Virus record (IMG/VR): IMGVR_UViG_3300042997_001465
Coordinates: 6,778 to 70,777 of that record
Length of the DNA: 64,000 bases
DNA from: a virus
Taxonomy: Duplodnaviria; Caudoviricetes
Reading direction: 5' to 3' (one strand)
Of this stretch, positions 1,169 to 53,852 are shown in pieces. The notes beneath the pieces were generated by a model. The model was not told where the DNA came from, made no database searches, and saw only the letters and a list, made by a program, of their open reading frames with translations. Positions within the stretch are counted from its first letter, which is position 1. Every line of letters begins with the position of its first letter. Position numbers and translations under genes: made by a program.

Positions 1169-1200
1169 CAAATATACGATAATTTTTCCAAACTACCAAA
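1169..1200 (-). promoter_or_regulatory. Bacteroidota-type sigma70 promoter
   Basis: Minus strand TTTG (1200-1197), 20-nt spacer, TATATTTG (1176-1169), upstream of ORF 910..1143. Confidence 0.8.
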
Positions 1201-28011: not shown

Positions 28012-28043
28012 CAAATATACAAAATTTTATTCGTTTTACCAAA
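28012..28043 (-). promoter_or_regulatory. Bacteroidota-type sigma70 promoter of the glycan cluster
   Basis: TTTG (28043-28040), 20-nt spacer, TATATTTG (28019-28012). Confidence 0.8.
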
Positions 28044-30832: not shown

Positions 30833-32125
30833 TTATATTTTATTTAGTTTAGGTATTTGCATTTTTGATGAATTCACCTTTGGCATATTAAATGGAACTA
30901 ATTTAGGTTGTGATTTAACATATCGTTCCATCGTTTGAGTAAATTTATCATTCATTTTATCCAATGTAAAATTAGATAACGTATTTGTTCGTAAACCTTC
31001 CGATTTCTTTAAATAAGTATCATAATTTTTATATACATCATAAATTTTATTTGCCGCGGATGAATAGTTAGCGGTAAACCATTGTGCTTCTTTCATACAA
31101 AATTGGTCTGCTGCTGAATCATGTACCGCTGTCAAACTTCCTTCCAGTAAAACCGAATGTTCGGGAGGTAGGAAATCCAACTGCCCACTCCAACCACTAG
31201 CTATAATTGGTTTACCGGTTAAAGTAAACTCAGCCATTGGTCTACCATATCCTTCACCTTTGGTAAACGATAGCATTGCCTTAACTTTGGGGTGATGGTA
31301 TAAATTACTCATATCAGTTTCTTCCATATCACCGTGTACCAAATACACCGATGGGCACTTATCTCCAAGTGGTTTTAATAGAGAGTCAAGTTTTTCTCTA
31401 GTTCCTTCTCTATCTATAACACTAAATCCGGCATGCGAAGTTTTAACGATAAGACCTGGTCTTTTATCTTTTGGTAGATATTGAAATACCGTAGCAAATG
31501 TTTTAATTGCCATACCAATATCTTTTCTATCTTGTCCTAAATCTCCCTTCAACCAATGTCCTACAATTAGGAAGTTAAAATCTTCTTTTACATTTGATAA
31601 TACATCCTTACCAGTTCCTTTGGAAAATATTTCAGTATCAACTCCTTCAAAAAGAACTTCAATGGGTTTTGTTACTCTAATTTCTCCAACAATTTGTCCA
31701 GTTGTCTGGTCTTTTTGCTGATACACAGTTCCGCCAATATTTTGTTTTGTAAAGTTTGACGGTACTATTATCAAATCCATATTATTACATCCGTCAATAA
31801 AATCTTTTGGACAAATTGTAGTTTCAACGCCGGCGGTTATCCCAATGTTATACCCACCTTTTGCAGTAAATTCATTTGCCACCGATACTTGAATGAATAC
31901 ATCAGGTTTTTCAGTAACTTCGGTAATAACTCTTTCCAACATCCAGCGGCCGAAATCACTTTCGCCATCAACATTATTTTGTGGAGTATTACCCCAACGT
32001 AGTGGTATAATTTTAATATCATACTTGTCCATTTTACGAAGTGATTTTAATAAATCACGACTATGGTCCCCATATCCAGAACGGGTAAAGCATGGGCTTT
32101 GAAATACTAATGTTGGTTTATTCAT
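30833..32125 (-). CDS. GT-B (GT4-like) glycosyltransferase
   Basis: TRSGYG, GEGYGRPMAEF..TGKPII..GWSG. Confidence 0.8.
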   Translation of the reverse strand: MNKPTLVFQSPCFTRSGYGDHSRDLLKSLRKMDKYDIKIIPLRWGNTPQNNVDGESDFGRWMLERVITEVTEKPDVFIQVSVANEFTAKGGYNIGITAGVETTICPKDFIDGCNNMDLIIVPSNFTKQNIGGTVYQQKDQTTGQIVGEIRVTKPIEVLFEGVDTEIFSKGTGKDVLSNVKEDFNFLIVGHWLKGDLGQDRKDIGMAIKTFATVFQYLPKDKRPGLIVKTSHAGFSVIDREGTREKLDSLLKPLGDKCPSVYLVHGDMEETDMSNLYHHPKVKAMLSFTKGEGYGRPMAEFTLTGKPIIASGWSGQLDFLPPEHSVLLEGSLTAVHDSAADQFCMKEAQWFTANYSSAANKIYDVYKNYDTYLKKSEGLRTNTLSNFTLDKMNDKFTQTMERYVKSQPKLVPFNMPKVNSSKMQIPKLNKI

Positions 32126-32135
32126 ATATTATAAC

Positions 32136-33518
32136 TTATTTTATTTTAAAAACTTCAAATCTTTCTCTTGGTTTCCAATTTTCAAAAACCGATTCGATTC
32201 CATTAACTAATGTTTGACACATATTCGTATGAGTCAATCCCATCTCACCGATAAACGCCTCTCTACCCTTCAATGCGTTTGTTTTACGAACTTCTTTTGG
32301 TGTGTTGTACGCTTTCTCAATCGCTTCAGCAACATCCTCTATATCAACTCTATCATCCCAAATATAAGGTGTAGGAACTGAACCTGCTAAAGCTTGTGCT
32401 CTGCTCCATACTGGAATTGACCAAGGACCAGGTTTTGCTTTGGTTTCCCATATTCTCCACTCATGCAAAGAACCAATCTTAATGTAATCGTCCGCAGTTA
32501 GTAATTTACCATCAACTTTAAATCCACATTGGTCTTGCAATCCACCAGTTACGTTTACAATGATTGGAGTACCAGCCATAATAGATTCTGCAGTCGCTAA
32601 TCCAAATCCTTCATTGTTAGCTATATTGATTGTTGCATCTACCATATTGTAGATAAGATTCAATTCTTCCTGAGGTCTTCTCTTTTCTGAAAATATAATA
32701 TTACACTCAGGTGCCATTACATCTATTACTGCAGGTAAATCAGTTCCATTCTCATCCACAGGTTGCGTATGCATTACTAAACAAACTTTATCCGCTTTTT
32801 CTTTACCAATTCTATCACAAAACTTTTTAAATGCTACGATAACATCTGCGGGTTGTTTTCTTCTGATATTACGATTACTCCAATATAGAACAAAATCATA
32901 TTCCTTGCCACCTAAAATCTCTTTACGAAATTCTGCAGGCACATCCGCTGGTTTATAAATATTTGTATTAATACCATGTGGTACATAACTCACTTGCCAA
33001 TCTTTTTTAGGCTTCCATGTTGGTTTAGTATCTAATGCCGATAATCTTTTAATGATACCATATGTTTGACGAGATATACAGCCAATCCAATCACAACTCT
33101 CATAGTAGTTACGATTGTATAACGGGTCTGGTAAATCATCCCAAATTGCATAGAATAAAAGAGGAACGTTTTGTCTGATTTCATGTTCGATATCATACAA
33201 CCATGTCCAATAACGAGGGTCAGTAAAGTGTAGGATAGCATCAGGCTTTTCTGAATTGATAAGTTGTCTAATCAAATCAGCATTACCATACCCATTCCAA
33301 GGAAGTATTTTAACATTAGCATCAGCGACACCATATGTATTTTTTATATCTTCACTTACATCCAAAACCTTACCAGCTTCAGGATGATTAATAGCCGCTC
33401 CCACCTGAAACCAATCGTATTTATGTACTGTACCAAGTACTAATTCTTTTGACATAGTAGCGATACCACTTGCCATTCTTAAATCATCCGAAAGTAAAAG
33501 GATTTTCTTTTTTGCCAT
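32136..33518 (-). CDS. GT-B (GT4-like) glycosyltransferase
   Basis: LLLSDD...SG, VPHG, NRNIRRK, NEGFGLATAESIMAGTPII...TGGL. Confidence 0.85.
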   Translation of the reverse strand: MAKKKILLLSDDLRMASGIATMSKELVLGTVHKYDWFQVGAAINHPEAGKVLDVSEDIKNTYGVADANVKILPWNGYGNADLIRQLINSEKPDAILHFTDPRYWTWLYDIEHEIRQNVPLLFYAIWDDLPDPLYNRNYYESCDWIGCISRQTYGIIKRLSALDTKPTWKPKKDWQVSYVPHGINTNIYKPADVPAEFRKEILGGKEYDFVLYWSNRNIRRKQPADVIVAFKKFCDRIGKEKADKVCLVMHTQPVDENGTDLPAVIDVMAPECNIIFSEKRRPQEELNLIYNMVDATINIANNEGFGLATAESIMAGTPIIVNVTGGLQDQCGFKVDGKLLTADDYIKIGSLHEWRIWETKAKPGPWSIPVWSRAQALAGSVPTPYIWDDRVDIEDVAEAIEKAYNTPKEVRKTNALKGREAFIGEMGLTHTNMCQTLVNGIESVFENWKPRERFEVFKIK

Positions 33519-33786: not shown

Positions 33787-34659
33787 TTATTTTGTAGCCT
33801 GTTTATCACATATTCCCCTATTTCCGAACTCACAAAACTTGCAATTCTTTTTAGCGGGACCAGGTACTTTAGGAAATGGGATATCCCTAAACTTACCCTC
33901 ATCATCAAATACGGTATTAATAAATGCCATAAATTCATCATATACTTTGGTTACCGATGGTGCTCCATTTGATGGAATGTGTTTTGAAATATACGGTATC
34001 GGAAATGCGGAATCTTCGGGTAATTTCCTACGAAGAATTTGATATTCTACTCTAATTTTGTTTAAAGAAATATTAAATAATTCTGAATAGTACTTTTTAT
34101 AAAGAAGAATTTGAGAGTTCTTCATCTTATCCGCTTTTTGGTATTGATTCCATCCCATTGTAGATGTCTTAAGGTCAATAATAATAATTTCATTAGATGC
34201 CAAATCTCTCAATACGATATCTATGAATCCAATAAAATGCACACCCTCTTTAATGGTTGCGTTTAATGGAATCTCAATACCTACTAATTCAAATCCACTC
34301 TTTGAGTAAAATTTACTAGAATATTTTTTAAACCACGTAAGTATCCTTCTACCATCTCCATAAAATTCTTCTAATTGTTCTTGGGTACAAGGAGTTCCTT
34401 CACTCATTTTTTCAACTTCTCCCTTATACGATTTTCTCATATTTTCCAATAAGAGACCATCCATACTAATTTCATCAGCCTGCTTTTTGGAAACACCATA
34501 CATTACCGATAAGTAGTGTTGAATAGTTTCATGCATAGCACTACCAAAGATTGTATGGATGTTAGATGAACTTTCACCTAACTTATCTATGTAGTTTAAC
34601 TTATATTGATGAGGGCAGTTACTCCACATTGAGTACTGCGAAAATGATACTTTTGCCAT
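33787..34659 (-). CDS. Cas4/RecB-like PD-(D/E)XK exonuclease
   Basis: SFSQY...CP, FGSAMHE, GFIDIVL, IIDLKT, QILLY, CKFCEF...C. Confidence 0.85.
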   Translation of the reverse strand: MAKVSFSQYSMWSNCPHQYKLNYIDKLGESSSNIHTIFGSAMHETIQHYLSVMYGVSKKQADEISMDGLLLENMRKSYKGEVEKMSEGTPCTQEQLEEFYGDGRRILTWFKKYSSKFYSKSGFELVGIEIPLNATIKEGVHFIGFIDIVLRDLASNEIIIIDLKTSTMGWNQYQKADKMKNSQILLYKKYYSELFNISLNKIRVEYQILRRKLPEDSAFPIPYISKHIPSNGAPSVTKVYDEFMAFINTVFDDEGKFRDIPFPKVPGPAKKNCKFCEFGNRGICDKQATK

Positions 34660-37239: not shown

Positions 37240-39780
37240 AAACTTTTTTGCATTTTGAGAATCCGCCGATGCCATTTCCCACTTCAATGCACCATAGAAA
37301 TCATTTAATTTATTTTCTAATTCCGCTTTATAAATTCCATCTCTATCAACATATTGATTTATAAAATCTAAAATTTCTTTTGGGTCATTATAATCTCTAA
37401 ATGCAGCGGTTTCGATTCCTAATGGATTGCTTTTGAGATATACCCACTTAACTTTCTCACCATCTCTAATTGGTTCGTGTTTAAACGGACACTCAAAGAA
37501 TTTAAGTAATCGATTATAAGTGATTCCGGCCTTAACGTGCGCAGGTGTTCCTTTTTCAAAGTTAGCAATTGCCAACCCACTATCCTTTCTCCATTTACCT
37601 TTATCATATTTACTTAATTCTTTAATAGCTCCGCCTTTAGCGATTTTATTAATATGTAGGGTTGGTAAATTCTTTTTAAATTCTAAAAGTGATTCATTTA
37701 TCTCTTGATTCGTTTTACCCATTAGGATATCTTTTAACATCTGAGCCATAAAATCCTGAAACGCTTTGGGGAATGAGCTTCTAACTACGTCTAATCCTTT
37801 AACATCCAACTTATCACATGGTATTCCATTTTTCAAAATCATCCATTGTGCATATCGTTTCTTTGCTACCCAAAATCCAGCTTTACTAATATATTCTTTT
37901 TTAATCTCAAATCTATGTTTGTCTTTTGGAATACAAAAAAATCTTTCGGCTAATAGGTCATAAAACGAATTTAAAAATGCCTGCGTTTCATCTGCAATAA
38001 TATTTACTTCTTGCGCCATTCTATTTTGCTCAAACGTTTTATATTCCGGATATCTATGTTTCACCAATGGTTCGGCCATCATATAAATTGAGTCAGTATC
38101 AATATAAACATTATAATCTTCCTTTGTACCCAATTCTTTCTGATATTTGAGATTAGCCATCTCAGCGGTTTTCTTAATTACAGTTTGTCCAGTAATTGTA
38201 ACTGCCTCTGCGTTATCTATATCATAGAAACGGAATGCAACTAATCCCAATACACCATACATCGAATTTAAAAGAATCTTTTGTACTAATTGACGTTTGC
38301 CATAGAACTCATATTTTTCAGTATCACCCGCCTCTCCATACTTTTTTTCCAATTTTCTGAACTCAACTCTTTGTTTGAACCAATTATCCAAGATATCAGC
38401 AATCAAACCCGGTTTCTTTTGAGTGTATAATACTCCATTTGCAGCAACTCCCAATTGATTATCGGCAATAACTTCTTCTAATTCTTTTCGGTTATATGAA
38501 AATTCTTTTGTTTTCCCTACTATCGTATATTGCCTATCTTCTCCTCTAACCCAAGATTCAGGATTCCAATCGGCAATCTTACCAACCTTTGTTTCAGGAC
38601 TAATGTTTAAGGTCATAATGATTGATGGGTATAGGGATGTTAAATCCAAATCATATATCCAATCATACTTTCCAACGATGGGTTCTTTTACATATGCCCC
38701 AATGAATTTTTCTTCACCAGCTTCAGTTTGTTCTGCAAGTTTATCTTTGTGATTCTTTGGTTTATTTGGTGCTACTAATCCTTTCTTTTTAAGATAAGCC
38801 AAGCATGCTCCTTCTAAATACTTTGATGAAAAGATATAATCTTCATATGGAGTAAATCCGGAATGACAAATCGCTCTAGATAAATCTATAAATTGTAATT
38901 TCGCATCCATCTCTACTATCAATTCAACATCGACAATATTATACTCGATAAACTTTTCCAAATCATTTTCAAATAAGTCATCCAAACTTCCTTCATATTC
39001 AATCTTACCTCTGCCTAATTCTTTTGTTGCAATATGATTAAGTGTATATGAACTCTCTAATCCAAAGTTATAACGTTTATATAAACCAATATAATCCATA
39101 ATACTCACACCAGCAACGCTATAACGATTACGGTATGGTGACCAATATGTCTTACCTATACAAGAAAGACGACTTGCGTGTCTTTCACCACATACATTCT
39201 TAATACGATTGAAAAGATATGGAACGTCAAAGAAATCAATATTCCAACCCGTCCATATTGTTGGATTAACACCTTCGTAATAAGTTAGATATCCCATAAT
39301 AAGACCATGTTCATCATCATATACATGCATATGAACATCTCTACCATTTTTATTAAATGATTTACCTTTTACTTTTTGTTTCTTATCAACAACAAATACG
39401 TGATATTCTTTTGAAGCGTTGTCATATGCCGCGATTGAAGTAATTTCATTTTCGGCTTTTTCAATACTTGGAAGTCCTGTTATCATTTCTACCTCGATAT
39501 CAAATGTTAAAACGATATGCCCTTTTGATGGCACATCATCGCCATATAGGTCAACTAAAACTCTAGTAGTTTCAGGTACATCTGATTCAAACAGTTCTTC
39601 TCCACTATCCTTTTCCCATTTAAACACTTTGGTTAATTTATCACCATACATCGATTGATGTTGGCCGTTAGGGTCTTTAACATAAGCATATCTCTGATAT
39701 GGAAATGTGCGATACCCTAACGTGTCATCCCATAGGTGTATTAAATTTTTTTGTCTTTCGAAAAATATGTTTTGGTACAT
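37228..39780 (-). CDS. family B DNA polymerase (T4 gp43-like)
   Basis: Exo FDIE, GWNIDFFD, YNIVD; pol DLTSLYPS, KILLNSMYG, YIDTDS, KKRY. Confidence 0.95.
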   Translation of the reverse strand: MYQNIFFERQKNLIHLWDDTLGYRTFPYQRYAYVKDPNGQHQSMYGDKLTKVFKWEKDSGEELFESDVPETTRVLVDLYGDDVPSKGHIVLTFDIEVEMITGLPSIEKAENEITSIAAYDNASKEYHVFVVDKKQKVKGKSFNKNGRDVHMHVYDDEHGLIMGYLTYYEGVNPTIWTGWNIDFFDVPYLFNRIKNVCGERHASRLSCIGKTYWSPYRNRYSVAGVSIMDYIGLYKRYNFGLESSYTLNHIATKELGRGKIEYEGSLDDLFENDLEKFIEYNIVDVELIVEMDAKLQFIDLSRAICHSGFTPYEDYIFSSKYLEGACLAYLKKKGLVAPNKPKNHKDKLAEQTEAGEEKFIGAYVKEPIVGKYDWIYDLDLTSLYPSIIMTLNISPETKVGKIADWNPESWVRGEDRQYTIVGKTKEFSYNRKELEEVIADNQLGVAANGVLYTQKKPGLIADILDNWFKQRVEFRKLEKKYGEAGDTEKYEFYGKRQLVQKILLNSMYGVLGLVAFRFYDIDNAEAVTITGQTVIKKTAEMANLKYQKELGTKEDYNVYIDTDSIYMMAEPLVKHRYPEYKTFEQNRMAQEVNIIADETQAFLNSFYDLLAERFFCIPKDKHRFEIKKEYISKAGFWVAKKRYAQWMILKNGIPCDKLDVKGLDVVRSSFPKAFQDFMAQMLKDILMGKTNQEINESLLEFKKNLPTLHINKIAKGGAIKELSKYDKGKWRKDSGLAIANFEKGTPAHVKAGITYNRLLKFFECPFKHEPIRDGEKVKWVYLKSNPLGIETAAFRDYNDPKEILDFINQYVDRDGIYKAELENKLNDFYGALKWEMASADSQNAKKFFEF

Positions 39781-41351
39781 TATGGCTTATAAAATATAAA
39801 AATTGGTTCGTATTTGTAAAATTGTCCTTCTATCTGCATGCTATTCTTTGCCTTTGATAAATCCATTCCGGTCATTGGACTCATTGTCATTCTTAGTTTT
39901 CCTTTGTATTCACATCCTAAACTTGTAAGAATATCAATACTATCCTGTTCTAACGGATAAAACTTATCGGGCCCTACTTTGATATCTGCAATATTCCAGC
40001 AAATATATCTGTCATTGCGAAGATACTCATATATAGTTTCAAGTGTTGGTCTTAAAAAACCATCTCTCCAACTTTCATAGTTTCCGAATTTCTTAAATGA
40101 CTGAGAGTCATCATCGGAATATCGTTCTCTATCAAAGTACGGTGGTGAAGTAAATGCAAAATCTAGTTTTCCTTTATACTTTTGAAATCTAACTTCATCT
40201 TTGATTACTTCAGAACCGGTTGTAAATATTTCGTATGTGTTTGCGTGTCCCCAAAATGCGTTTGCCGCACCAGGTACTTTATTGTTAAAGAATTCTGCCA
40301 AATACTCATATCTACTCTTTCCAATTTCTTCAATCCAGTTTTCAGTATTGGGGTCATTTCCTATGTAATGTATATTTCTATCATCCACACTCAATGCTCC
40401 CAATATTCTACCACCCCAACCCGCTGATGGGTCATATATGTTGATTACATCCTGTTCTTTGATGTGTTGAGTGAATCTTTGGTATAGATACTTTGCAGTC
40501 AATGGTGGAAAGTTTACAACAGCTTGTGTTCCCATTCCAATACGAAATGCAGCAGTTGCTTCTGGAAATATTCGTTGTCCTAATGGATATATTTTAATTT
40601 GAATTGGTTGTTTTGGTACATCCACTAAATTATCAATATTTTCTCCCCAATCAGCGGTTTTTAATGAAGATATGTTTTCATATTTCAATATACCGGCATT
40701 ATACAGGTCTCTAACCTCTTGTGCAGTAATTGGTGGTGATGGAACTTTACTATCTGCTTGTGAAAGGCAAAATCCATAACCCTCTTTCTTATTACCAGCT
40801 ACCCATTTTTCAATCCACTCTTTGCCACTTTGGATATGTGAGTTATGAAATTCAGGATTATCCAAATGCAATGTTTTAGAAAAACGATACATACCGTCTT
40901 GCCTAGTCAATCGTCTCATTTGTTTAATAAACTCTGACAAATATAAATCATCCGAAAACACATCATATATGGATGGCTTTGGTTTATCATATGCACTTCC
41001 ACCGATTCCGGTTTTATACATAGCTGGAAAAAATTGATTTACCGGTGTTGCAAATTTATTGAAGTTAAAGATGACTTCGTTTCCGTCATCATCTTTTTCT
41101 TCAAATTTATTTACTTTATAAGTTTGTAACTTTGAAAATTGTTCAATCATTTCTGATTCATCTACTCCAATTCTAGGTGGTGCACCGGTCTCGTTCCACT
41201 TTCGTACAGCCAGCTCTCTAAAAAATGCCACCCACTTTTCAAAATCGGCGAATGGCATTTTGAGAACATCTTCATACAATAAGTTTACTTTTGGTTCGTA
41301 CAACCATTCATTCTTTTCGTAGAAATATTTTTTTTCGTAATTAAAACTCAT
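39780..41351 (-). CDS. SPPY-type amino-methyltransferase, paralogue 3
   Basis: YDPSAGWGGR (motif I), FTSPPYF (motif IV), WNIAD; long N-terminal region. Confidence 0.85.
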   Translation of the reverse strand: MSFNYEKKYFYEKNEWLYEPKVNLLYEDVLKMPFADFEKWVAFFRELAVRKWNETGAPPRIGVDESEMIEQFSKLQTYKVNKFEEKDDDGNEVIFNFNKFATPVNQFFPAMYKTGIGGSAYDKPKPSIYDVFSDDLYLSEFIKQMRRLTRQDGMYRFSKTLHLDNPEFHNSHIQSGKEWIEKWVAGNKKEGYGFCLSQADSKVPSPPITAQEVRDLYNAGILKYENISSLKTADWGENIDNLVDVPKQPIQIKIYPLGQRIFPEATAAFRIGMGTQAVVNFPPLTAKYLYQRFTQHIKEQDVINIYDPSAGWGGRILGALSVDDRNIHYIGNDPNTENWIEEIGKSRYEYLAEFFNNKVPGAANAFWGHANTYEIFTTGSEVIKDEVRFQKYKGKLDFAFTSPPYFDRERYSDDDSQSFKKFGNYESWRDGFLRPTLETIYEYLRNDRYICWNIADIKVGPDKFYPLEQDSIDILTSLGCEYKGKLRMTMSPMTGMDLSKAKNSMQIEGQFYKYEPIFIFYKP

Positions 41352-42101: not shown

Positions 42102-42133
42102 CAAATATACGATAATTATTTTAAATTACCAAA
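42102..42133 (-). promoter_or_regulatory. Bacteroidota-type sigma70 promoter
   Basis: TTTG, 20-nt spacer, TATATTTG upstream of the clamp gene. Confidence 0.8.
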
Positions 42134-42134
42134 T

Positions 42135-43349
42135 TTATTTTTCCCAAACCCATATTGGTTCTCCAAATGCGTGGTTTTTGGTTTCTTCGGCTTTTTCTTT
42201 CAATTCATCCGAATAATATTCCGATACAGCCATCCCAGCACCCCCACTATTGGGTCTTTTTGTCATTTCCATACCTATACACCCTTTATAAGTTAATCCC
42301 TTAGATTGAAGGAAATCGTTCATAGAATTGGTTATATCCACATACCCCTTATCCGGTGCGGAAAATACATCCGCTATATTAACTGCAAGTATTCCACCTT
42401 TCTTAAGTGTAGGTATAATTTTTTCTAAAGTTGCATGAAAGAATCCTTTATTCCAATCATCAAACTTCTTATATCTAACCCAACTCTGTGTATCATCTAA
42501 GCTATATTTTTCCGTATTGAAGTATGGTGGCGATGTAAAGATTGTATCAAAAAAGTTTTCATATTCCGAATAATCCACATCTTCAGCTGCCATTTCTAAC
42601 ATTTTTGCATCCTTATCATCTTCAAAAAATGTTTTATGTTTTTTATAAAATTGTATTTGTTTTTCGTAGTTAGCGTGATTGTTACTATTCGGGTCAATTC
42701 CTAAATAGAATTTTGTTGTTTCGCCTGCAAAAAAACCACACAATCTATCACCCCATCCAGCAGAAAAATCTAATACATTTTCACTTTGAAATTTATCATA
42801 GAAAGCTTTTGCAATAACCGGTTTAAATTGAGATGCTACATATTTTCGTAAAACGGTTGCCATCCTTAATGTTTCCTGATTTACCTCTAATAACATTTTA
42901 TCTAAAGTAAAATACGCTCTTACTATTGTTTTAATACCATCTACTGTTTGCCATGCTTTCCAACCAGAAGGAGTTCTCACCCAATCAACTTTCCAACGAG
43001 TTTCAATGTGAAATGGATTTGATGCATTATTACCAACATTTGTTCTTTTAAAATAATAATTACTATTATCGTATGTAAGTGGATAGTTTGATACTCTTTC
43101 ATTTCTAGGAAACCACTTGCCTTCAATTAATATATCCGGCCACCAAGTTCCTTTTAATTTTTTATACGCATCAATTGTATCTTGTTCCGTTATAATTGGT
43201 ATTGGAGCGGGATATGTATGTAATACTTCTGATAGTTCGTTTACAATCTCCTCTTTAGTATATGTTTTTATAATATCTTGCCACTCATCTTTATTTATAT
43301 AAAGATATGGTTTCATATTATAAAACTTTTTAAAATGTTCTTTTATCAT
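42135..43349 (-). CDS. SPPY-type amino-methyltransferase, paralogue 2
   Basis: LDFSAGWGDR, FTSPPYF, VNIAD; start at 43349 forms ATGA overlap with paralogue 1. Confidence 0.85.
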   Translation of the reverse strand: MIKEHFKKFYNMKPYLYINKDEWQDIIKTYTKEEIVNELSEVLHTYPAPIPIITEQDTIDAYKKLKGTWWPDILIEGKWFPRNERVSNYPLTYDNSNYYFKRTNVGNNASNPFHIETRWKVDWVRTPSGWKAWQTVDGIKTIVRAYFTLDKMLLEVNQETLRMATVLRKYVASQFKPVIAKAFYDKFQSENVLDFSAGWGDRLCGFFAGETTKFYLGIDPNSNNHANYEKQIQFYKKHKTFFEDDKDAKMLEMAAEDVDYSEYENFFDTIFTSPPYFNTEKYSLDDTQSWVRYKKFDDWNKGFFHATLEKIIPTLKKGGILAVNIADVFSAPDKGYVDITNSMNDFLQSKGLTYKGCIGMEMTKRPNSGGAGMAVSEYYSDELKEKAEETKNHAFGEPIWVWEK

Positions 43350-44575
43350 AATTTTTTCCAAATCCAAATGGGTTCACAAAATGTTTTATCGCCGGCCTCA
43401 GCGGCTTTTGCTAATGCTTCTTCACTAAATCTACTTTCATCACCTTCTATAATAGAAGCCGCACCTGCACTACCTGGTCTTTTAGCCATCTCCATACCCA
43501 AACATCCTTCGTATTCCGCTCCCAATGTTTTTATAAAATCATTCATTGGATTACATATTTCTTTATATCCTTTACCATCACCTTTTGAACTTGCATAAAC
43601 ATCTGCTATATTAATAGCCAATATTCCACCTTTCTTAATTGTAGGCCAAACATTTGCAATTGTTTTATGAAGAAATTGTTTATTCCATGCATCTATGTTT
43701 TTGTATCTTACCCAACTCTGTGTATCATCATAAGAATATCTTTCCACGTTAAAATATGGTGGTGAACTAAATACAATATCAAAGTGGTTTTCATATATTG
43801 ATAAATCCGCGTCTTCGGCAGGTGATTCGATAAAATCTGCCTTCTTATCGGTTTCAAAAAAACTATTATGTTTTGTATAAAATTGAGCCTGTTGATTATA
43901 AATTGGATGGTTTTCTTTTCTAGGGTCGATACCTACATAATGTTCTCCGAATTCAGATGCAAAGAAGCCACATAATCTATCACCCCATCCCGCTGATATA
44001 TCTAATACATTCTTAGCTTCGTAAAAATCATATAGAACTTTTGCAGCATTTGGTTTAAATTGTGAACATATGTACTTTCGTAATGATAAACATACTCTTA
44101 ATTGGTTTCTACCAACTTCATCAAATTTAAGAGTGTATAATCCACCCATAAGAGTTGTCATAAATTCTTTACTTGCCCAAGTCCTTTTTGGACCAGGTGA
44201 TACTGTACCATCTACACTCCAACGGTTTGCTTGTTGAAAGTGATTTGATGAATCATTCCCTGTATTTAATCTACGAATGTATTGTGGTTTTCCTTTAAAA
44301 TCTAAAGAATATCTAAATTCCGATGCTTTTCTAGGAAACCATTCACCTTCGGTAAATAATTCATTCCAACGTATTCCTTTTAATGCCAAATATTCTTTTC
44401 TAGCATCATCCTCACTTATATCTGCATAAGGAAGTGGATATTCCATACAAATTGTTGCCAATGAATCTTTAACATCATCTCTATTAAAGGTGGATTTAAT
44501 ATGTTTCCACTCTTGTGAGCTAATATGAAGGTATGGTTGCATACCTTTGAACTTATCAAAATAATCTAAATACAT
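43346..44575 (-). CDS. SPPY-type amino-methyltransferase, paralogue 1
   Basis: LDISAGWGDR, FSSPPYF, INIAD. Confidence 0.85.
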   Translation of the reverse strand: MYLDYFDKFKGMQPYLHISSQEWKHIKSTFNRDDVKDSLATICMEYPLPYADISEDDARKEYLALKGIRWNELFTEGEWFPRKASEFRYSLDFKGKPQYIRRLNTGNDSSNHFQQANRWSVDGTVSPGPKRTWASKEFMTTLMGGLYTLKFDEVGRNQLRVCLSLRKYICSQFKPNAAKVLYDFYEAKNVLDISAGWGDRLCGFFASEFGEHYVGIDPRKENHPIYNQQAQFYTKHNSFFETDKKADFIESPAEDADLSIYENHFDIVFSSPPYFNVERYSYDDTQSWVRYKNIDAWNKQFLHKTIANVWPTIKKGGILAINIADVYASSKGDGKGYKEICNPMNDFIKTLGAEYEGCLGMEMAKRPGSAGAASIIEGDESRFSEEALAKAAEAGDKTFCEPIWIWKKL

Positions 44576-45087
44576 ACTGTTTCTATATTTTTATCGGCAA
44601 CTAGTCTTAGTCTGAAAACTATACCATTAATAATACCATCGGTTTTACTGGTCCAACTTATATCACTATCTTTTACAAAACCATATCGTTCATAAAATAA
44701 TACAGCTCTATAATTGAATGCTCTAACGGTTAAAAATAGATTTTCTGCATGAACTGATTTACAATATTCCACAAATTCATCCAATACTTCTTTAGAAGAA
44801 TTTGATTTAGAATGATTGGTTGCAATTTGATGAAGAATAAAATCTCCTTTCTTTTTATATGTAGTTGCATTTCTGCTCATTCTACCATGTGATTTATATC
44901 TACCAAAAGTGATAACAACGCCATCTTGCAGTATCATTCCACCTTTTTCAATATATTTCTCCAACTTAAAACCCTGTTTATGAAGGTGTGGAAATATTTC
45001 TGGGTACAAATCTATGATAGAAGATGCTTGATTTACCGCTTCTATCATTTCAGCCGAACCCCTTTCTGCTTTTACAAAATTAAGCAT
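44566..45087 (-). CDS. GNAT-family acetyltransferase
   Basis: ILHQIA, LTVRAFNYRAVLFYERYGF (GNAT motif B); overlaps both neighbours. Confidence 0.8.
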   Translation of the reverse strand: MLNFVKAERGSAEMIEAVNQASSIIDLYPEIFPHLHKQGFKLEKYIEKGGMILQDGVVITFGRYKSHGRMSRNATTYKKKGDFILHQIATNHSKSNSSKEVLDEFVEYCKSVHAENLFLTVRAFNYRAVLFYERYGFVKDSDISWTSKTDGIINGIVFRLRLVADKNIETVCI

Positions 45088-46537
45088 TTTTAAAAAATTT
45101 ATTTTGGTTTATTTGGTCTTTATACAAAGATATGGATTTTAATTGAGATTTCAAAATATCTTTTCTGGCTTCCATCATATCACCGGTTCTACATCCTTTA
45201 GCGAAATATACTTTAGGTCTATATAATAGTTCATCGGAAATCTCTCCTTTAAAAGCTGCTCTTAATAAAGGTTTCATATGATTATTTTCTTTCTGATATA
45301 AAGGTGGTATGTTCAATGTATATTCTACAAAGGGTCTCCAACTATACGGTGTTCGTACTTCAACGGTACCACCCCACATTATGGATTGGTTGGTAGTTAA
45401 GAAGTTTGTTTTATGAACATCCTCTACTAATTTTCTTCTAGCTTTATCATAATCTTCCGGTCTCCAATGGAACGCCTGAATGTGTCCATAACTACCCCAT
45501 ATTTCATCTGAAAGGTCACCACTAAAGACAACTTTAAATCCCAATTCATTAATCTTTTTAGATAACGCAATTTGAGCTATTGCTGAGCCTACGTTTTGCC
45601 ATCTACTTTGTTCAATAACATAAAGTGTTTCATTGATTGAATCTTCAACATCTTTCTCAGTTAGAATAATTTCATGTAGTTTTACACCAAATTCTTTTGC
45701 AGCAATTCTAGCATATTTTATATCATCATTCTTAGTATCACCGTCTCCCATTGAAACCACAAATGCTTCAATATTAGGGTTTATCTTTGAAAGTATGTAA
45801 GTTGTTATCACCGAATCAATACCCCCACTCAAAATGGTGCAGATTGGAACGTCAGATACCATTTTTACTTTAACCGCTTCTTCCAACATTTTTCTAATAT
45901 TCTTAACAATAGTTTCTCTATCATCATTTATTATTTCATTTGGAAGTTTATAATATGTTACGGTATTATGTTCTAATGTTTTATAGTTGTAATCTAAGAA
46001 TGTACCTGGATAAATTGCCTTTATTTGTTTTTCATATAAATCTGAAATTGGCAATCCTTTCTTTTCCGAACAAAATACTAATTTACCATCGTTATCAATT
46101 GCATACCATAATGGCAATTCTCCAACATAATCTCTAACAACAATTATTTTATTAATTTTAGTATCAACTATTGCAAATGAGAACATCCCATCCAAATCTT
46201 TGAATGAATCAGTTCCAAATTCACAATAAGCATTAAGAATTATTTCAGTATCAGATTTTGTTTTAAATGGAATTGTAATTTTATCTTTTAATTCTTTTGT
46301 GTAATTACTACCCCACAACTCTCCATTATATACAATACACACAGTCTTGTCACCATTCCACATTGGTTGGTTTGCTGTTGAAGATAAATCTTGAATTGAA
46401 AGACGATTGTGTCCAACAAAGACACTGTCTATCTCGTCTACAATAGAAGCATCTCTGCCTCTATGAATTATTTTTTGTAAATGGGTATGGGTCTGCTTAC
46501 TAGAAGTAAACCAATTACCGCCTATTATTCCACACAT
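45080..46537 (-). CDS. asparagine-synthetase-B-like glutamine amidotransferase
   Basis: N-terminal MCGI (Ntn Cys), HRG.D, HNRLSI, QPM, NGE, LSGGIDS, SGD.SDE..GSY. Confidence 0.9.
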   Translation of the reverse strand: MCGIIGGNWFTSSKQTHTHLQKIIHRGRDASIVDEIDSVFVGHNRLSIQDLSSTANQPMWNGDKTVCIVYNGELWGSNYTKELKDKITIPFKTKSDTEIILNAYCEFGTDSFKDLDGMFSFAIVDTKINKIIVVRDYVGELPLWYAIDNDGKLVFCSEKKGLPISDLYEKQIKAIYPGTFLDYNYKTLEHNTVTYYKLPNEIINDDRETIVKNIRKMLEEAVKVKMVSDVPICTILSGGIDSVITTYILSKINPNIEAFVVSMGDGDTKNDDIKYARIAAKEFGVKLHEIILTEKDVEDSINETLYVIEQSRWQNVGSAIAQIALSKKINELGFKVVFSGDLSDEIWGSYGHIQAFHWRPEDYDKARRKLVEDVHKTNFLTTNQSIMWGGTVEVRTPYSWRPFVEYTLNIPPLYQKENNHMKPLLRAAFKGEISDELLYRPKVYFAKGCRTGDMMEARKDILKSQLKSISLYKDQINQNKFFKNA

Positions 46538-46541
46538 ATAA

Positions 46542-46573
46542 CAAATTTACGAAACTTTTTTGATATTACCAAA
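46542..46573 (-). promoter_or_regulatory. Bacteroidota-type sigma70 promoter abutting the AsnB-like ATG
   Basis: TTTG (46573-46570), 20-nt spacer, TAAATTTG (46549-46542); ATG 5 nt downstream. Confidence 0.75.
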
Positions 46574-47069: not shown

Positions 47070-48926
47070 TTATTTCACTTCACAAGCTCCACCGGCACAT
47101 GCCAACTCACCACTTAAGTCAGTTGTATCTTCCAATTCTATAACTTTACTTAAGTCAACATCGTTTAATGTTTTCATAAGTTCTTCATATTTTTCTTTTG
47201 TACAATCTTCAAATGGTGCTTGAATATAAGTACCACCATCATAAGGCAATACCGATAATCCATTATAGAACTCTTTGTTTTCCCACATCCACTCACCAAC
47301 TGCTTTCCACTCATGCTCTCTAATAGATATAGTTGCTGATACATTGTGTGAATTGCTTCCAGTTCTATGTCCAGGTTTAATCCATTCACCATGTACTTTT
47401 TTAACTCTCTCTAATAATTGAATTGGTGATTCAGTTCTAAAGATTGCAGTATCAGGTGCTTTTTGTGGAATGCCAATTACAGCAGTATCATGTGGTCTGA
47501 AATATTCATCTTCTACTAATTCAGGATGATTTAGCACTAAGTGAGAATACATCGATTCGTTCTTACCAACTCTTACTCTACGAATATAATAATCGTTATG
47601 CCAAGCATGAATTCCAGATGAAGTTCCTAATGTCAATGAAGTAGTTCCAGCAGGCTTAACCGTTGTACATCTTGCCGATGCGTTAATACCTAATATTTCT
47701 GCTACTCTTTTGTTTTCTATTTTCACAACTTTTGCTGCTTCTTTCATATCTAATTTCAAAACTGCACCACTTCCGATTCCTGTCATTGATATTCCTATTA
47801 AGGCATCCTTTTCAGTTGTTCTTTGCCAAATTGGTCTTAAGTAATGAAAATCAGTATATCCAGCCTGCAATGTTCCAACAAATGCCGCTGCTTTAACTCT
47901 TGCATTCAAATCGTCTTGGTCTACTACATCACTTACATTCACCTCACATAAGTTACAGAATTGGAAAGGTCTTAATGCAATCTCACAACATGGATTAGTT
48001 CCCCAATCTTTATCATTTGATAAGTAGATACCAGGCTCACCTGCTCCACTTGCTTCAATTCGTTTCCATAAGTCCATAAAATACTCTTTAGTAATTTTAT
48101 GTCTCATTAATACTGCTGAGTTATTTGCTCTACCTCTTTGTGGATTTGTTTCCCACCACGCGCCACTCTTACAACTAATCATTTGCTCATCACTTGCAGA
48201 GAATAGAGCGATTAATGCTGCTCTACGGATACCACCTGCTAATACCGCATCAGCAATGTGACAAACCATATCGTGCACTTCAATTGGTTTTAATTTCTCA
48301 CCATCTTTTTTTGCATCTAAGATACCTTCTAATTTGATAAGGCATTCTTTCAATGGTTGAGGACCTGGTGCTTTACCACCTGATGTTACCAATCGTGCTC
48401 CTTTCTCTCTAATATCTCTAAAATCAAATACCGGCTTACTACCACCAAAGAAATATGCTTTTACAATTACTGAAACTGCATCAGCCCATCCTTCAATAGA
48501 GTCACCAATTAAAAATCTTCTTGTCTTATCAGTTGATGGCTTTCTGATTTCAGGTAAACAATCAACGTGATGTTGTTGTACTGAATAACCTACTCCAGTT
48601 CCACCCAATAGTAAGAACATAATTTCTGAAAACACTCTCCAATCATCTACCGGTGCAAATGCACAATTATAAATTCTATTTGGTGATAATTCAATTGGTT
48701 TACCTGCGAACTGCATTGAACGCATTGATGGTAATATTTTTTTATTCGATACGAATTTATATACTTCTTTTATTTCCTCTTTTAAATTTGGATATGTTTT
48801 TATATGCATATCCATATTTCTTTTTACCAACTCCTTCCAAGTTTCTCTCCTTTTTAATTCCGGTCTGTACTTTGCGTACTTCATATAAACCGTAATGTCC
48901 GATAAAATTCGTGTTGAAATGTCCAT
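47070..48926 (-). CDS. nrdJ: class II (adenosylcobalamin-dependent) ribonucleotide reductase, monomeric RTPR type
   Basis: NCAF, GVGY, IRR.A, NPCCEI, CNL, VKPAGT, C-terminal CAGGAC; no beta-subunit gene nearby. Confidence 0.9.
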   Translation of the reverse strand: MDISTRILSDITVYMKYAKYRPELKRRETWKELVKRNMDMHIKTYPNLKEEIKEVYKFVSNKKILPSMRSMQFAGKPIELSPNRIYNCAFAPVDDWRVFSEIMFLLLGGTGVGYSVQQHHVDCLPEIRKPSTDKTRRFLIGDSIEGWADAVSVIVKAYFFGGSKPVFDFRDIREKGARLVTSGGKAPGPQPLKECLIKLEGILDAKKDGEKLKPIEVHDMVCHIADAVLAGGIRRAALIALFSASDEQMISCKSGAWWETNPQRGRANNSAVLMRHKITKEYFMDLWKRIEASGAGEPGIYLSNDKDWGTNPCCEIALRPFQFCNLCEVNVSDVVDQDDLNARVKAAAFVGTLQAGYTDFHYLRPIWQRTTEKDALIGISMTGIGSGAVLKLDMKEAAKVVKIENKRVAEILGINASARCTTVKPAGTTSLTLGTSSGIHAWHNDYYIRRVRVGKNESMYSHLVLNHPELVEDEYFRPHDTAVIGIPQKAPDTAIFRTESPIQLLERVKKVHGEWIKPGHRTGSNSHNVSATISIREHEWKAVGEWMWENKEFYNGLSVLPYDGGTYIQAPFEDCTKEKYEELMKTLNDVDLSKVIELEDTTDLSGELACAGGACEVK

Positions 48927-53820: not shown

Positions 53821-53852
53821 CAAATATACAACAAATTATTGGACTTTCCAAA
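53821..53852 (-). promoter_or_regulatory. Bacteroidota-type sigma70 promoter (proximal SSB promoter)
   Basis: TTTG, 20-nt spacer, TATATTTG. Confidence 0.8.

What the first reader, a model, noticed from the sequence alone, without database searches (positions are those of the whole stretch)
42135..46573. AsnB-like amidotransferase + GNAT + two amino-methyltransferases: candidate new DNA hypermodification cassette
Seen: four overlapping genes (8-, 10- and 4-nt overlaps) bounded by their own promoter (46542-46573) and the next promoter (42102-42133), embedded between RNR/thioredoxin and clamp/PolB. Established: AsnB chemistry converts a carboxylate to a carboxamide (ATP, Gln); the GNAT-fold Mu Mom protein yields N6-carbamoylmethyladenine; SPPY enzymes alkylate exocyclic base amines. 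Inference: the cassette installs an acyl or carboxyalkyl group on a base and amidates it, giving an anti-restriction base I do not know to be described. Simple asparagine supply would not explain the coupling.
Basis: partly seen in the sequence, partly recalled or inferred. Interest (0 to 1): 0.88.

Follow-up and report, generated by a model that had tools for sequence, protein, structure and literature searches.

The report
Phage amidotransferase-acetyltransferase pair beside DNA methyltransferase-like genes
An uncultured giant phage carries, inside its DNA-replication genes, a removable two-gene unit (an asparagine-synthetase-like amidotransferase and an acetyltransferase) next to virus-specific methyltransferase-like genes; it probably decorates the phage's DNA bases with an undescribed amide-bearing group, but no chemistry has been measured.

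Summary
Four overlapping minus-strand genes lie between two copies of a recurring Bacteroidota-type promoter, flanked by RNR/thioredoxin and clamp/PolB. A third methyltransferase paralogue lies just outside the given coordinates.

- **Not plain asparagine synthetase:** the AsnB-like protein keeps its glutaminase and ATP sites, but the aspartate-pocket residues are replaced and the C-terminal part is missing.
- **A tight, removable pair:** it is fused to the GNAT gene wherever this could be tested (about 60 contigs). Two phages with 94% identical flanks differ by a clean 1,960-bp indel that holds exactly these two genes.
- **Methyltransferase-like genes are core:** they occur without the pair, so all four genes are not obligately coupled.
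- **Swappable cassettes:** sister lineages carry other AsnB-like cassettes at the same spot (thymidylate-synthase-like + PLP enzyme; 2-hydroxyacid dehydrogenase + PLP enzyme). This points to nucleotide or DNA hypermodification.
- **Closest cultured-phage homologue:** it sits in a CmoX/CmoY/CmoA-type cluster.
- **GNAT:** it looks like an ordinary acetyl-CoA N-acetyltransferase, not Mom.

Complete relatives have no CmoA, C5-methylase, hydroxymethylase or DpdA, so the handle being amidated is unknown. The scan reported this cassette twice before, in other genomes. Verdict: new variant of a known kind; interest about 0.6.

The parts
46542..46573 (-). Host-type promoter-like motif (TTTGG...GTAAATTTG) that drives the four-gene operon
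   Evidence: One of 5 copies in the window against 0.04 expected by chance. It lies 4 nt upstream of the AsnB-like ATG. In relatives that lack AsnB/GNAT the same spacer precedes MT1 directly.
45080..46537 (-). AsnB-like glutamine amidotransferase (485 aa). It has an N-terminal Cys glutaminase domain and a PP-loop adenylating domain with a remodelled acceptor pocket.
   Evidence: Pfam and NCBIfam hits. Alignment to E. coli AsnB and 1CT9: C1, R49, N74, G75, E76, D98, SGGxDS, K429 and K449 are kept. TTxR becomes QNxG, E348 becomes D, D384 becomes N, R387 becomes T/S, and the C-terminal 70 residues or so are absent.
44566..45087 (-). Small GNAT-fold N-acetyltransferase (173 aa), translationally coupled to the AsnB-like gene
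   Evidence: Weak Pfam GNAT hits. A profile of its family hits Ard1, RimI, Naa50 and PaiA in the PDB. AlphaFold model pLDDT 91; Foldseek top matches are PaiA, Ard1, RimI and ArsN-type N-acetyltransferases. It is adjacent to the AsnB-like gene in every locus that reaches far enough.
43346..44575 (-). MT1: virus-specific class I SAM-dependent enzyme (409 aa) with motif I (DxSxGWGDR), an SPPY motif IV and a conserved helical N-terminal domain
   Evidence: invariant residues D192, G196, G198, R200, D217, E254, S271, P272, P273. Model pLDDT 92. Nearest folds are the TrmN/Trm11/Trm14 m2G and METTL5 m6A amino-methyltransferases, Z 15-16. Atlas look-alikes are all viral.
42135..43349 (-). MT2: paralogue of MT1 (47% identical). 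The likely start is the ATG at 43349, giving a 4-nt overlap; an alternative TTG lies at 43367.
42102..42133 (-). Second copy of the promoter-like motif, which starts the clamp/MT3/PolB unit
39780..41351 (-). MT3: third SPPY paralogue (523 aa) between the clamp and PolB. It lies outside the finding's coordinates but belongs to the same enzyme family.
   Evidence: It is conserved at 78-95% next to clamp/PolB across relatives.

Best explanation
The operon joins two separable parts.

(A) AsnB-like + GNAT is an accessory two-gene tailoring module. It moves laterally and sits in a variable modification island between thioredoxin/RNR and PolB.
- The AsnB-like enzyme hydrolyses glutamine, adenylates a carboxylate that is not free L-aspartate, and converts it to a carboxamide.
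- The GNAT N-acetylates a primary amine using acetyl-CoA.
- Most likely both act on a substituent carried by a DNA base, or by a deoxynucleotide before incorporation. The result would be a neutral, bulky, amide-bearing base that blocks host nucleases.

(B) MT1, MT2 and MT3 are core SAM-dependent transferases for exocyclic amines, found only in viruses. They work without the pair and most likely N-methylate phage DNA.

Shown: gene structure, domain integrity, the remodelled acceptor pocket, obligate AsnB-GNAT pairing, the clean presence/absence polymorphism, alternative AsnB-like cassettes at the same locus, and the absence of the known handle-making enzymes.

Inferred: that the substrate is DNA or a nucleotide, the chemistry of the product, and its anti-restriction role.
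For: - **Catalytic machinery intact, aspartate pocket changed.** Positions conserved from E. coli to human and wheat are replaced throughout the phage family (PMC6748925, PMC5775275).
- **AsnB and GNAT overlap and are adjacent in every locus long enough to test**.
- **Clean indel.** L084 and L086 share about 94% nucleotide identity in the flanks. They differ by a 1,960-bp segment that runs exactly from the AsnB ATG to the MT1 ATG.
- **Lateral exchange.** AsnB is 89-90% identical between lineages whose PolB is 57% identical.
- **Alternative cassettes at the same island in sister lineages:**
  - TS-like (PF00303 28.6 bits; TIGR03283 2e-22) + AsnB-like of 501 aa + PLP enzyme (phrog_7093), in 9 loci.
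  - AsnB-like of 541 aa + 2-hydroxyacid dehydrogenase + PLP enzyme, in 2 loci.
  - TS-fold enzymes act on pyrimidine nucleotides.
- **Best cultured-phage homologue.** TurkishDelight gp124 (29% identity, 1e-47) lies between a C5-DNA methylase and a CmoA-like gene, behind ParB-like genes. This is the CmoX/CmoY/CmoA layout of PMC12783734. The Motura homologue lies inside a 7-deazaguanine cluster.
- **Published precedents.** A GNAT that acetylates a DNA base adduct (PaMx11 gp48) and amidotransferases seen in thymidine-hypermodification clusters are both reported (PMC8989533).
- **Genomic setting.** The operon has its own host-type promoter inside the replication and nucleotide-metabolism block.
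Against: - No enzyme that could place a carboxylate or amine on a base was found in three complete relatives or in this contig: no CmoA, no C5-methylase (72), no TS-like hydroxymethylase (73, 87), no DpdA/TGT (93).
- Phages that lose the pair keep an unchanged MT1, so nothing ties the pair's chemistry to the methyltransferase-like genes.
- The AsnB-like protein passes NCBIfam's asparagine synthase cut-off (281.9 against 267.1).
- Overall it is as close to E. coli AsnB as to the phage CmoY-like protein.
- The phage also carries a large glycan-synthesis region, where amidotransferase plus acetyltransferase pairs are common. S-SCSM1 keeps its AsnB-like gene among glycosyltransferases.
- All evidence is comparative. 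No modified base has been measured.
Confidence: 0.5

Rival explanations
1. Auxiliary metabolism of a free small molecule. The pair makes asparagine, or an N-acetylated amino-acid amide or osmolyte-like compound, to support infection. Its position next to DNA methylases is incidental.
For: - TIGR01536 cut-off is passed.
- The glutaminase and ATP sites are intact.
- The GNAT resembles enzymes that acetylate free amino acids, amino-acid analogues and polyamines, such as PaiA, ArsN and phosphinothricin-type enzymes.
- Loss of the acidic residue that binds the alpha-amino group (D384 to N) would fit an N-blocked amino acid as substrate.
- The pair is dispensable.
- The AsnO plus GNAT pathway for N-acetylglutaminylglutamine amide is a known precedent (from my own knowledge).
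Against: - The aspartate-site residues and the C-terminal part are missing.
- The same TIGR01536 cut-off is passed by paralogues wired to TS-like and PLP enzymes, so it does not certify asparagine synthesis.
- The score for the AsnO-type model is far below its cut-off (178 against 570).
- The gene sits in the replication block and is replaced in sister lineages by cassettes that contain a nucleotide-specific TS-fold enzyme.
Confidence: 0.2
2. Glycan tailoring. The AsnB-like enzyme amidates a uronic acid, or forms an acetamidino group, and the GNAT N-acetylates an amino sugar. The target is the phage's extensive glycosylation system, or a sugar attached to DNA.
For: - The window carries many glycosyltransferase and sugar-modifying genes. 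Two GT genes at 30833-33518 were checked here; the 13.8-28 kb glycan operon is reported in scan notes e1-5849009 and e1-5849013 and was not checked.
- Synechococcus phage S-SCSM1 has an AsnB-like gene inside a glycosyltransferase/methyltransferase cluster.
- Uronate substrates lack an alpha-amino group, which fits the changed pocket.
Against: - The pair is not in the glycan operon. It is 14 kb away, under a different promoter, inside the replication genes.
- In all relatives it travels with thioredoxin, RNR, MT1 and PolB, never with glycosyltransferases.
Confidence: 0.12
3. RNA or protein modification. The MT-like enzymes methylate tRNA or rRNA (m2G/m6A type), and the pair modifies a tRNA nucleoside or a protein side chain.
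For: - The closest solved folds of MT1 are tRNA m2G methyltransferases (TrmN, Trm11, Trm14) and rRNA m6A METTL5.
- JGI annotates homologues as RsmD-like.
- The GNAT resembles protein N-terminal acetyltransferases.
- Relatives carry large tRNA arrays a few kb away.
Against: - MT1 lacks the THUMP domain of Trm11/TrmN and has a virus-only helical N-terminal domain instead.
- Homologues are fused to HTH domains and to canonical N6/N4 DNA methylases.
- MT3 is fixed between the clamp and PolB.
- This window has no tRNA genes.
Confidence: 0.08

Closest known systems
CmoA/CmoX/CmoY pathway of Synechococcus phage S-B43 (5-carboxymethylcytosine and its glycine amide; PMC12783734), including its uncharacterised cluster of CmoY-like ligases that carry a glutaminase domain
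   Same: An asparagine-synthetase homologue encoded beside DNA methyltransferase-family genes in a phage. It is expected to adenylate a carboxylate and form an amide. The window protein's best cultured-phage hit (TurkishDelight gp124, 29%) sits in a C5-methylase / AsnB-like / CmoA-like cluster. Both share D384 to N and loss of the TTxR motif.
   Different: No CmoA and no C5-methylase in this contig or in three complete relatives. The partner methyltransferase-like genes are SPPY amino-transferases, not SPPC C5 enzymes. A GNAT is the obligate partner. SpCmoY itself was not among the tblastn hits. That paper states it found no N6/N4 carboxymethyltransferase candidates.
Thymidine hypermodification pathways of phages M6, ViI and PaMx11 (PMC5889632, PMC8989533)
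   Same: Combinatorial, swappable tailoring enzymes that act on amino-acid-like adducts of DNA bases. These include a GNAT that acetylates a DNA adduct (PaMx11 gp48) and PLP enzymes. Amidotransferases were noted there as uncharacterised associates. Sister lineages of this phage carry TS-like + AsnB-like + PLP sets at the same locus.
   Different: The window lineage has no TS-like hydroxymethylase. No 5-hmdU DNA kinase or aGPT-Pplase was identified, though these were not specifically searched. The GNAT shows no detectable similarity to the P-loop/GNAT fusion of the sister cassette.
Asparagine synthetase B (E. coli AsnB, human ASNS)
   Same: Same two-domain architecture. The Ntn glutaminase residues, the PP-loop, K429 and K449 are conserved. 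163 bits to 1CT9; TIGR01536 cut-off passed.
   Different: The aspartate and beta-aspartyl-AMP pocket residues are replaced (TTxR, E348, D384, R387). The C-terminal 70 residues or so, including the region of Cys523, are absent. The PRK09431 cut-off is not reached (285 against 499).
Phage Mu Mom (GNAT-fold, Gly-tRNA-dependent N6-adenine modification; PMC13219725)
   Same: A GNAT-fold enzyme in a phage that could act on DNA; the product is an amide-bearing base.
   Different: No sequence similarity. The structural neighbours are acetyl-CoA-dependent N-acetyltransferases. Mom needs no amidotransferase.
Trm11/TrmN/Trm14 and METTL5 exocyclic-amine methyltransferases; gamma-type N6/N4 DNA methylases
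   Same: Class I fold with motif I followed by (D/N/S)PPY. Z 15-16, rmsd 2.6-3.3 A over 173-188 residues.
   Different: No THUMP domain. The N-terminal domain is found only in viruses. The Pfam N6_N4_Mtase score is below threshold and covers only about 60 of 221 positions. No sequence-level hit in the PDB.

Membership tests
Asparagine synthetase B (glutamine-hydrolysing) | N-terminal Cys nucleophile and glutamine-binding residues (R49, N74, G75, E76, D98) | tested here: met
   The MCGIIGG start and all five residues are conserved across the family.
Asparagine synthetase B (glutamine-hydrolysing) | PP-loop SGGxDS and the ATP/PPi lysines K429 and K449 | tested here: met
   SGGIDS is present and both lysines align.
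Asparagine synthetase B (glutamine-hydrolysing) | Aspartate / beta-aspartyl-AMP pocket: the TTxR motif, E348, D384, R387, and the C-terminal region with Cys523 | tested here: not met
   QNxG, D, N and T/S stand at these positions, invariant within the phage family. The protein ends near E. coli residue 480. The roles of these residues are taken from PMC6748925 and PMC5775275.
Asparagine synthetase B (glutamine-hydrolysing) | Curated NCBIfam cut-offs | tested here: inconclusive
   TIGR01536: 281.9 against 267.1 (passed). PRK09431: 284.9 against 499 (failed). The AsnB-like paralogues linked to TS and PLP enzymes also pass TIGR01536.
Asparagine synthetase B (glutamine-hydrolysing) | Makes asparagine from aspartate | not testable with these tools
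   Needs an enzyme assay or complementation of an auxotroph.
CmoA/CmoX/CmoY DNA carboxymethylation-amidation system | Asparagine-synthetase-homologous AMP-forming amide ligase | tested here: met
   The closest cultured-phage homologue lies in a cluster of this type.
CmoA/CmoX/CmoY DNA carboxymethylation-amidation system | [quoted passage not shown] | tested here: not met
   TIGR00740 finds nothing in the own contig or in three complete relatives. The control search rang in E. coli.
CmoA/CmoX/CmoY DNA carboxymethylation-amidation system | C5-cytosine methylase homologue (CmoX) | tested here: not met
   PF00145 finds nothing in the same four records.
Mom-type DNA-modifying GNAT | Sequence or structural kinship to Mu Mom (catalytic R111, S124) | tested here: inconclusive
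   BLASTP against Mu Mom gives E 0.026 over an unrelated stretch. The Foldseek list is filled with acetyl-CoA N-acetyltransferases. The catalytic residues could not be mapped.
N6/N4 DNA amino-methyltransferases | SAM-binding motif I and (D/N/S)PPY motif IV | tested here: met
   DxSxGWGDR and SPPY are invariant in 43 diverse homologues.
N6/N4 DNA amino-methyltransferases | Pfam PF01555 gathering score | tested here: not met
   22.4, 23.9 and 21.4 bits against 26.7. Only profile positions 2-61 are matched.
N6/N4 DNA amino-methyltransferases | DNA is the substrate | not testable with these tools
   Indirect only: fusions to HTH domains and to canonical DNA methylases, and the position between clamp and PolB.
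Thymidine hypermodification (5-hmdU route) | dUMP/dCMP hydroxymethylase (TS-fold) | tested here: not met
   None in this contig or in two of three complete relatives. The third has an ordinary ThyA far from the cassette. The TS-like protein of the sister cassette has no match.
Thymidine hypermodification (5-hmdU route) | 5-hmdU DNA kinase and aGPT-Pplase amino-acid:DNA transferase | not tested
   No dedicated search was run.
7-deazaguanine DNA modification | DpdA/TGT transglycosylase | tested here: not met
   PF01702 finds nothing in four records. The control search rang in all 14 genomes.

The most novel reading that the evidence does not exclude
The cassette builds an N-linked side chain on an exocyclic amine of a DNA base, like an amino acid or a carboxy-acyl group, without any CmoA, TS-like or kinase step. 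There are two possible routes.

1. An MT1-type SPPY enzyme transfers the 3-amino-3-carboxypropyl part of SAM, as TYW2 and MccD do. The AsnB-like enzyme and the GNAT then cap its carboxylate and amine. This parallels TYW4 capping in wybutosine synthesis and MccD/MccE in microcin C.
2. The GNAT adds a dicarboxylic acyl group, and the AsnB-like enzyme amidates its free end.

Either route would be the first natural N-linked carboxyl-handle pathway for DNA. It would also explain why all the swappable partner sets (GNAT; PLP enzyme + 2-hydroxyacid dehydrogenase; PLP enzyme + TS-like) are enzymes that act on alpha-amino-acid groups.
Probability: 0.15. Interest if true: 0.9.

Novelty: new variant of a known kind. 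Interest (0 to 1): 0.6.

Why it matters
The phages that carry this cassette are abundant in lakes and oceans. The scan recovered 66 contigs with the pair and thousands of MT1 homologues. If the pair tailors DNA, it marks an undescribed base modification in a major, uncultured group of large phages that probably infect Bacteroidota.

Such a modification would have three consequences:
- It would affect how metagenomic DNA from these phages is sequenced, cloned and restricted.
- It would add an amidotransferase/acetyltransferase step to the enzyme toolkit for DNA functionalisation.
- It would address the question left open by the CmoY paper, namely what the glutaminase-bearing AsnB-like ligases of phages do.

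The natural presence/absence variants give a ready-made experiment.

Tried and rejected
**Searches that found nothing**
- Megablast of the cassette against cultured phages: no match.
- phmmer and profile searches of MT1 against PDB sequences: nothing significant.
- ESM Atlas feature search for the GNAT: only generic GNAT clusters.

**Routes tested and not found**
- The Cx-SAM route: no CmoA in four records, and the control list did not ring for Bacteroides.
- C5-methylase.
- TS-like hydroxymethylase.
- DpdA, for 7-deazaguanine.

**Comparisons that showed no similarity**
- GNAT against Mom.
- GNAT against the P-loop/GNAT fusion of sister cassettes.
- The HD-like upstream gene of marine relatives against the TS-like gene. 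The HD-like gene also occurs without the pair, so it is a neighbour and not a member.

**Other negative results**
- Distant MT1 homologues (P0134, P0164) have no AsnB/GNAT nearby.
- The second indel between L084 and L086 is a 200-aa ORF with no family, inside a tRNA array. Nothing suggests it is a partner.

**Tools unavailable or limited**
- I could not confirm that UniProt A0A7T0Q3R0 of PMC12783734 is TurkishDelight gp124.
- No phylogeny of AsnB-like proteins with cellular outgroups was built, for lack of sequences.

Full report
**What is there.** The window is most of a 70.8-kb IMG/VR contig, estimated 37% complete. It has 33% G+C and nearly all genes are on the minus strand. The region holds a T4-like replication block:
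- gp32-like protein, RecA/UvsX, 5'-3' exonuclease and DnaB-type helicase;
- a class II RNR, DUF5522 and thioredoxin;
- the four genes of the finding;
- a 239-aa clamp candidate, a third methyltransferase-like gene and PolB;
- dUTPase and the clamp loader.

The two promoters are real copies of a recurring motif, TTTGG-N(14-22)-GTAWATTTG. It occurs five times in the window, all on the coding strand in intergenic gaps, against 0.04 expected. From my own knowledge, the -33 TTTG / -7 TAnnTTTG pattern is the Bacteroidota housekeeping promoter, so the host is probably a member of that phylum. The closest cultured relative by PolB is Microcystis phage Mel-JY01 at 48%. It did not appear among the hits for the AsnB-like gene or MT1.

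**The AsnB-like enzyme.** It begins Met-Cys and keeps every glutaminase residue, the PP-loop, and the two ATP/PPi lysines of E. coli AsnB. These acceptor-side positions differ, and the changes are invariant across 16 family members down to 66% identity:

| E. coli AsnB | Phage family |
|---|---|
| TTxR motif | QNxG |
| E348 | D |
| D384 | N |
| R387 | T/S |
| C-terminal 70 residues or so | absent |

In human ASNS the equivalents of E348, D351 and D384 hold the alpha-amino and alpha-carboxylate end of beta-aspartyl-AMP, and the synthetase site is otherwise almost identical from E. coli to human (PMC6748925). The TTxR residues and Cys523 are assigned to aspartate/ATP binding (PMC5775275).

The protein does pass the TIGR01536 cut-off. 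However, the AsnB-like paralogues that are wired to TS-like and PLP enzymes in sister phages pass it too. That score therefore does not certify asparagine synthesis. I conclude that the enzyme is an active glutamine-dependent amidotransferase whose carboxylate acceptor is probably not free aspartate.

**The GNAT.** Its family is confined to this phage group: 119 clusters, all at 43% identity or more. A confident model (pLDDT 91) resembles small acetyl-CoA N-acetyltransferases for alpha-amino groups, polyamines and amino-acid analogues, namely PaiA, Ard1, RimI and ArsN. It shows no similarity to Mu Mom. Mom is now known to use Gly-tRNA (PMC13219725).

**The methyltransferase-like genes.** MT1 and MT2 are 47% identical, and MT3 shares a 30% identical catalytic core. 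The family is very large (4,573 representatives at 50% clustering), and its Atlas look-alikes are all viral. Motif I (DxSxGWGDR) and SPPY are invariant.

The MT1 model (pLDDT 92) is closest to the exocyclic-amine methyltransferases TrmN, Trm11, Trm14 and METTL5 (Z 15-16). It carries a helical N-terminal domain in place of their THUMP domain. Fusions to HTH domains and to canonical N6/N4 DNA methylases, and the fixed place of MT3 between clamp and PolB, favour DNA as the target. This is not proven.

**Comparative anatomy.** This is the main new evidence.
- Among 66 loci found with the AsnB-like protein, and 80 found with the MT1 family, AsnB and GNAT are adjacent in every case where the contig extends far enough. 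The seven exceptions all end at the contig edge.
- MT1, often with MT2 and MT3, occurs in many relatives with no AsnB/GNAT within 10 kb (36 loci with MT1 alone).
- L084 and L086 are about 94% identical on both sides. They differ by a 1,960-bp segment that runs from the AsnB ATG to the MT1 ATG. In L086 the same promoter spacer leads straight into MT1.
- The pair is therefore a discrete, dispensable module, and MT1 does not depend on it.
- AsnB is 89-90% identical between lineages whose PolB is only 57% identical. The GNAT comes in divergent alleles in otherwise similar genomes. Both patterns indicate lateral exchange.

At the same island, other lineages carry different AsnB-like cassettes, each with constant partners:

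| Cassette | Loci |
|---|---|
| TS-like (232 aa) + AsnB-like (501 aa, 33-35% identical) + fold-type II PLP enzyme, sometimes with a P-loop/GNAT fusion | 9 |
| AsnB-like (541 aa, 44% identical) + 2-hydroxyacid dehydrogenase + the same PLP family, with a cupin hydroxylase nearby in L089 | 2 |

All these AsnB-likes share the D384-to-N change and lack TTxR. A TS-fold partner implies a pyrimidine nucleotide substrate. Swappable tailoring sets are the signature of phage DNA hypermodification clusters (PMC8989533).

**Links to described systems.** The best hit in cultured phages, Streptomyces phage TurkishDelight gp124, lies between a C5-cytosine methylase and a CmoA-like gene, behind ParB-like genes. 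This is the layout of the CmoX/CmoY/CmoA pathway. In that pathway an asparagine-synthetase homologue amidates 5-carboxymethylcytosine in DNA, and the glutaminase-bearing ligase cluster remains uncharacterised (PMC12783734). In Achromobacter phage Motura the homologue sits between QueC and a TGT-family gene, within a cluster that also holds QueE and a GTP cyclohydrolase. In S-SCSM1 it sits among glycosyltransferases, which keeps a glycan-tailoring rival alive.

**What is missing.** Three complete relatives (209-274 kb) and this contig hold no CmoA, no C5-methylase, no TS-like hydroxymethylase and no DpdA. In the window lineage I therefore cannot name the enzyme that supplies a carboxylate for the amidotransferase or an amine for the GNAT. 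Three options remain:
- the pair is self-sufficient;
- an MT1-type enzyme transfers something other than methyl;
- the pair acts on a non-DNA substrate.

**Verdict.**
- My best reading, at about 50%, is an accessory amidation/acetylation tailoring module for a DNA or nucleotide hypermodification, placed beside core DNA amino-methyltransferase-like genes that are independent of it.
- The rivals are a free-metabolite or asparagine role (about 20%), glycan tailoring (about 12%) and RNA or protein targets (about 8%).
- The scan reported the same cassette before in two other genomes (e1-5595360, e1-5595369), and related cassettes in others, with similar conclusions. Those notes are not independent evidence.

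Noticed in passing
window 1169-1200, 28012-28043, 42102-42133, 46542-46573, 53821-53852 (all minus strand): A recurring promoter-like motif, TTTGG-N(14-22)-GTAWATTTG, of the Bacteroidota -33/-7 type. The closest cultured relative by PolB is nevertheless a phage reported on Microcystis (48%).
   Followed up: partly
L014, L016-L021, L026, L027 and L006-L009, compared with the window: The AsnB-like gene is 85-90% identical between lineages whose PolB is 57% and GNAT 47-49% identical. The GNAT occurs as divergent alleles (90-93% against 59-60%) in otherwise similar genomes. This suggests lateral exchange and mosaicism inside the cassette.
   Followed up: partly
window 47070-48926; L067 4738-6522: The ribonucleotide reductase at this position is a B12-type class II enzyme in the window. 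In marine relatives it is a 594-aa enzyme with full class I-type large-subunit domains.
   Followed up: no
L045 10154-11692; proteins P0132, P0145: Homing-endonuclease genes invade the island. An HNH gene lies between GNAT and MT1 in L045. LAGLIDADG domains are fused to or inserted in MT1 homologues.
   Followed up: no
L084 13212-18496: Close relatives carry a tmRNA gene and 19 tRNA genes about 2 kb downstream of MT1. The window itself has no tRNA genes.
   Followed up: partly
window 30833-32125 and 32136-33518: Two glycosyltransferase genes (phrog_2170; the second also hits the 'GT4 in conflict systems' family, just under its cut-off). They sit beside a PD-(D/E)XK nuclease (33787-34659) and the clamp loader, apart from the large glycan operon. 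They might act on DNA.
   Followed up: no
L067 7283-7999 and homologues in about 35 loci: An HD-type metal-dependent phosphohydrolase-like gene (238 aa; phrog_5889 and phrog_28876) abuts the AsnB-like gene in marine lineages. It also occurs next to MT1 without the pair. It may be a nucleotide hydrolase of the island.
   Followed up: partly
locus of P0134 (no DNA held): A distant MT1 homologue (41% identical) overlaps by 4 nt a 223-aa gene with a weak thymidylate-synthase hit, in an unrelated phage contig.
   Followed up: no
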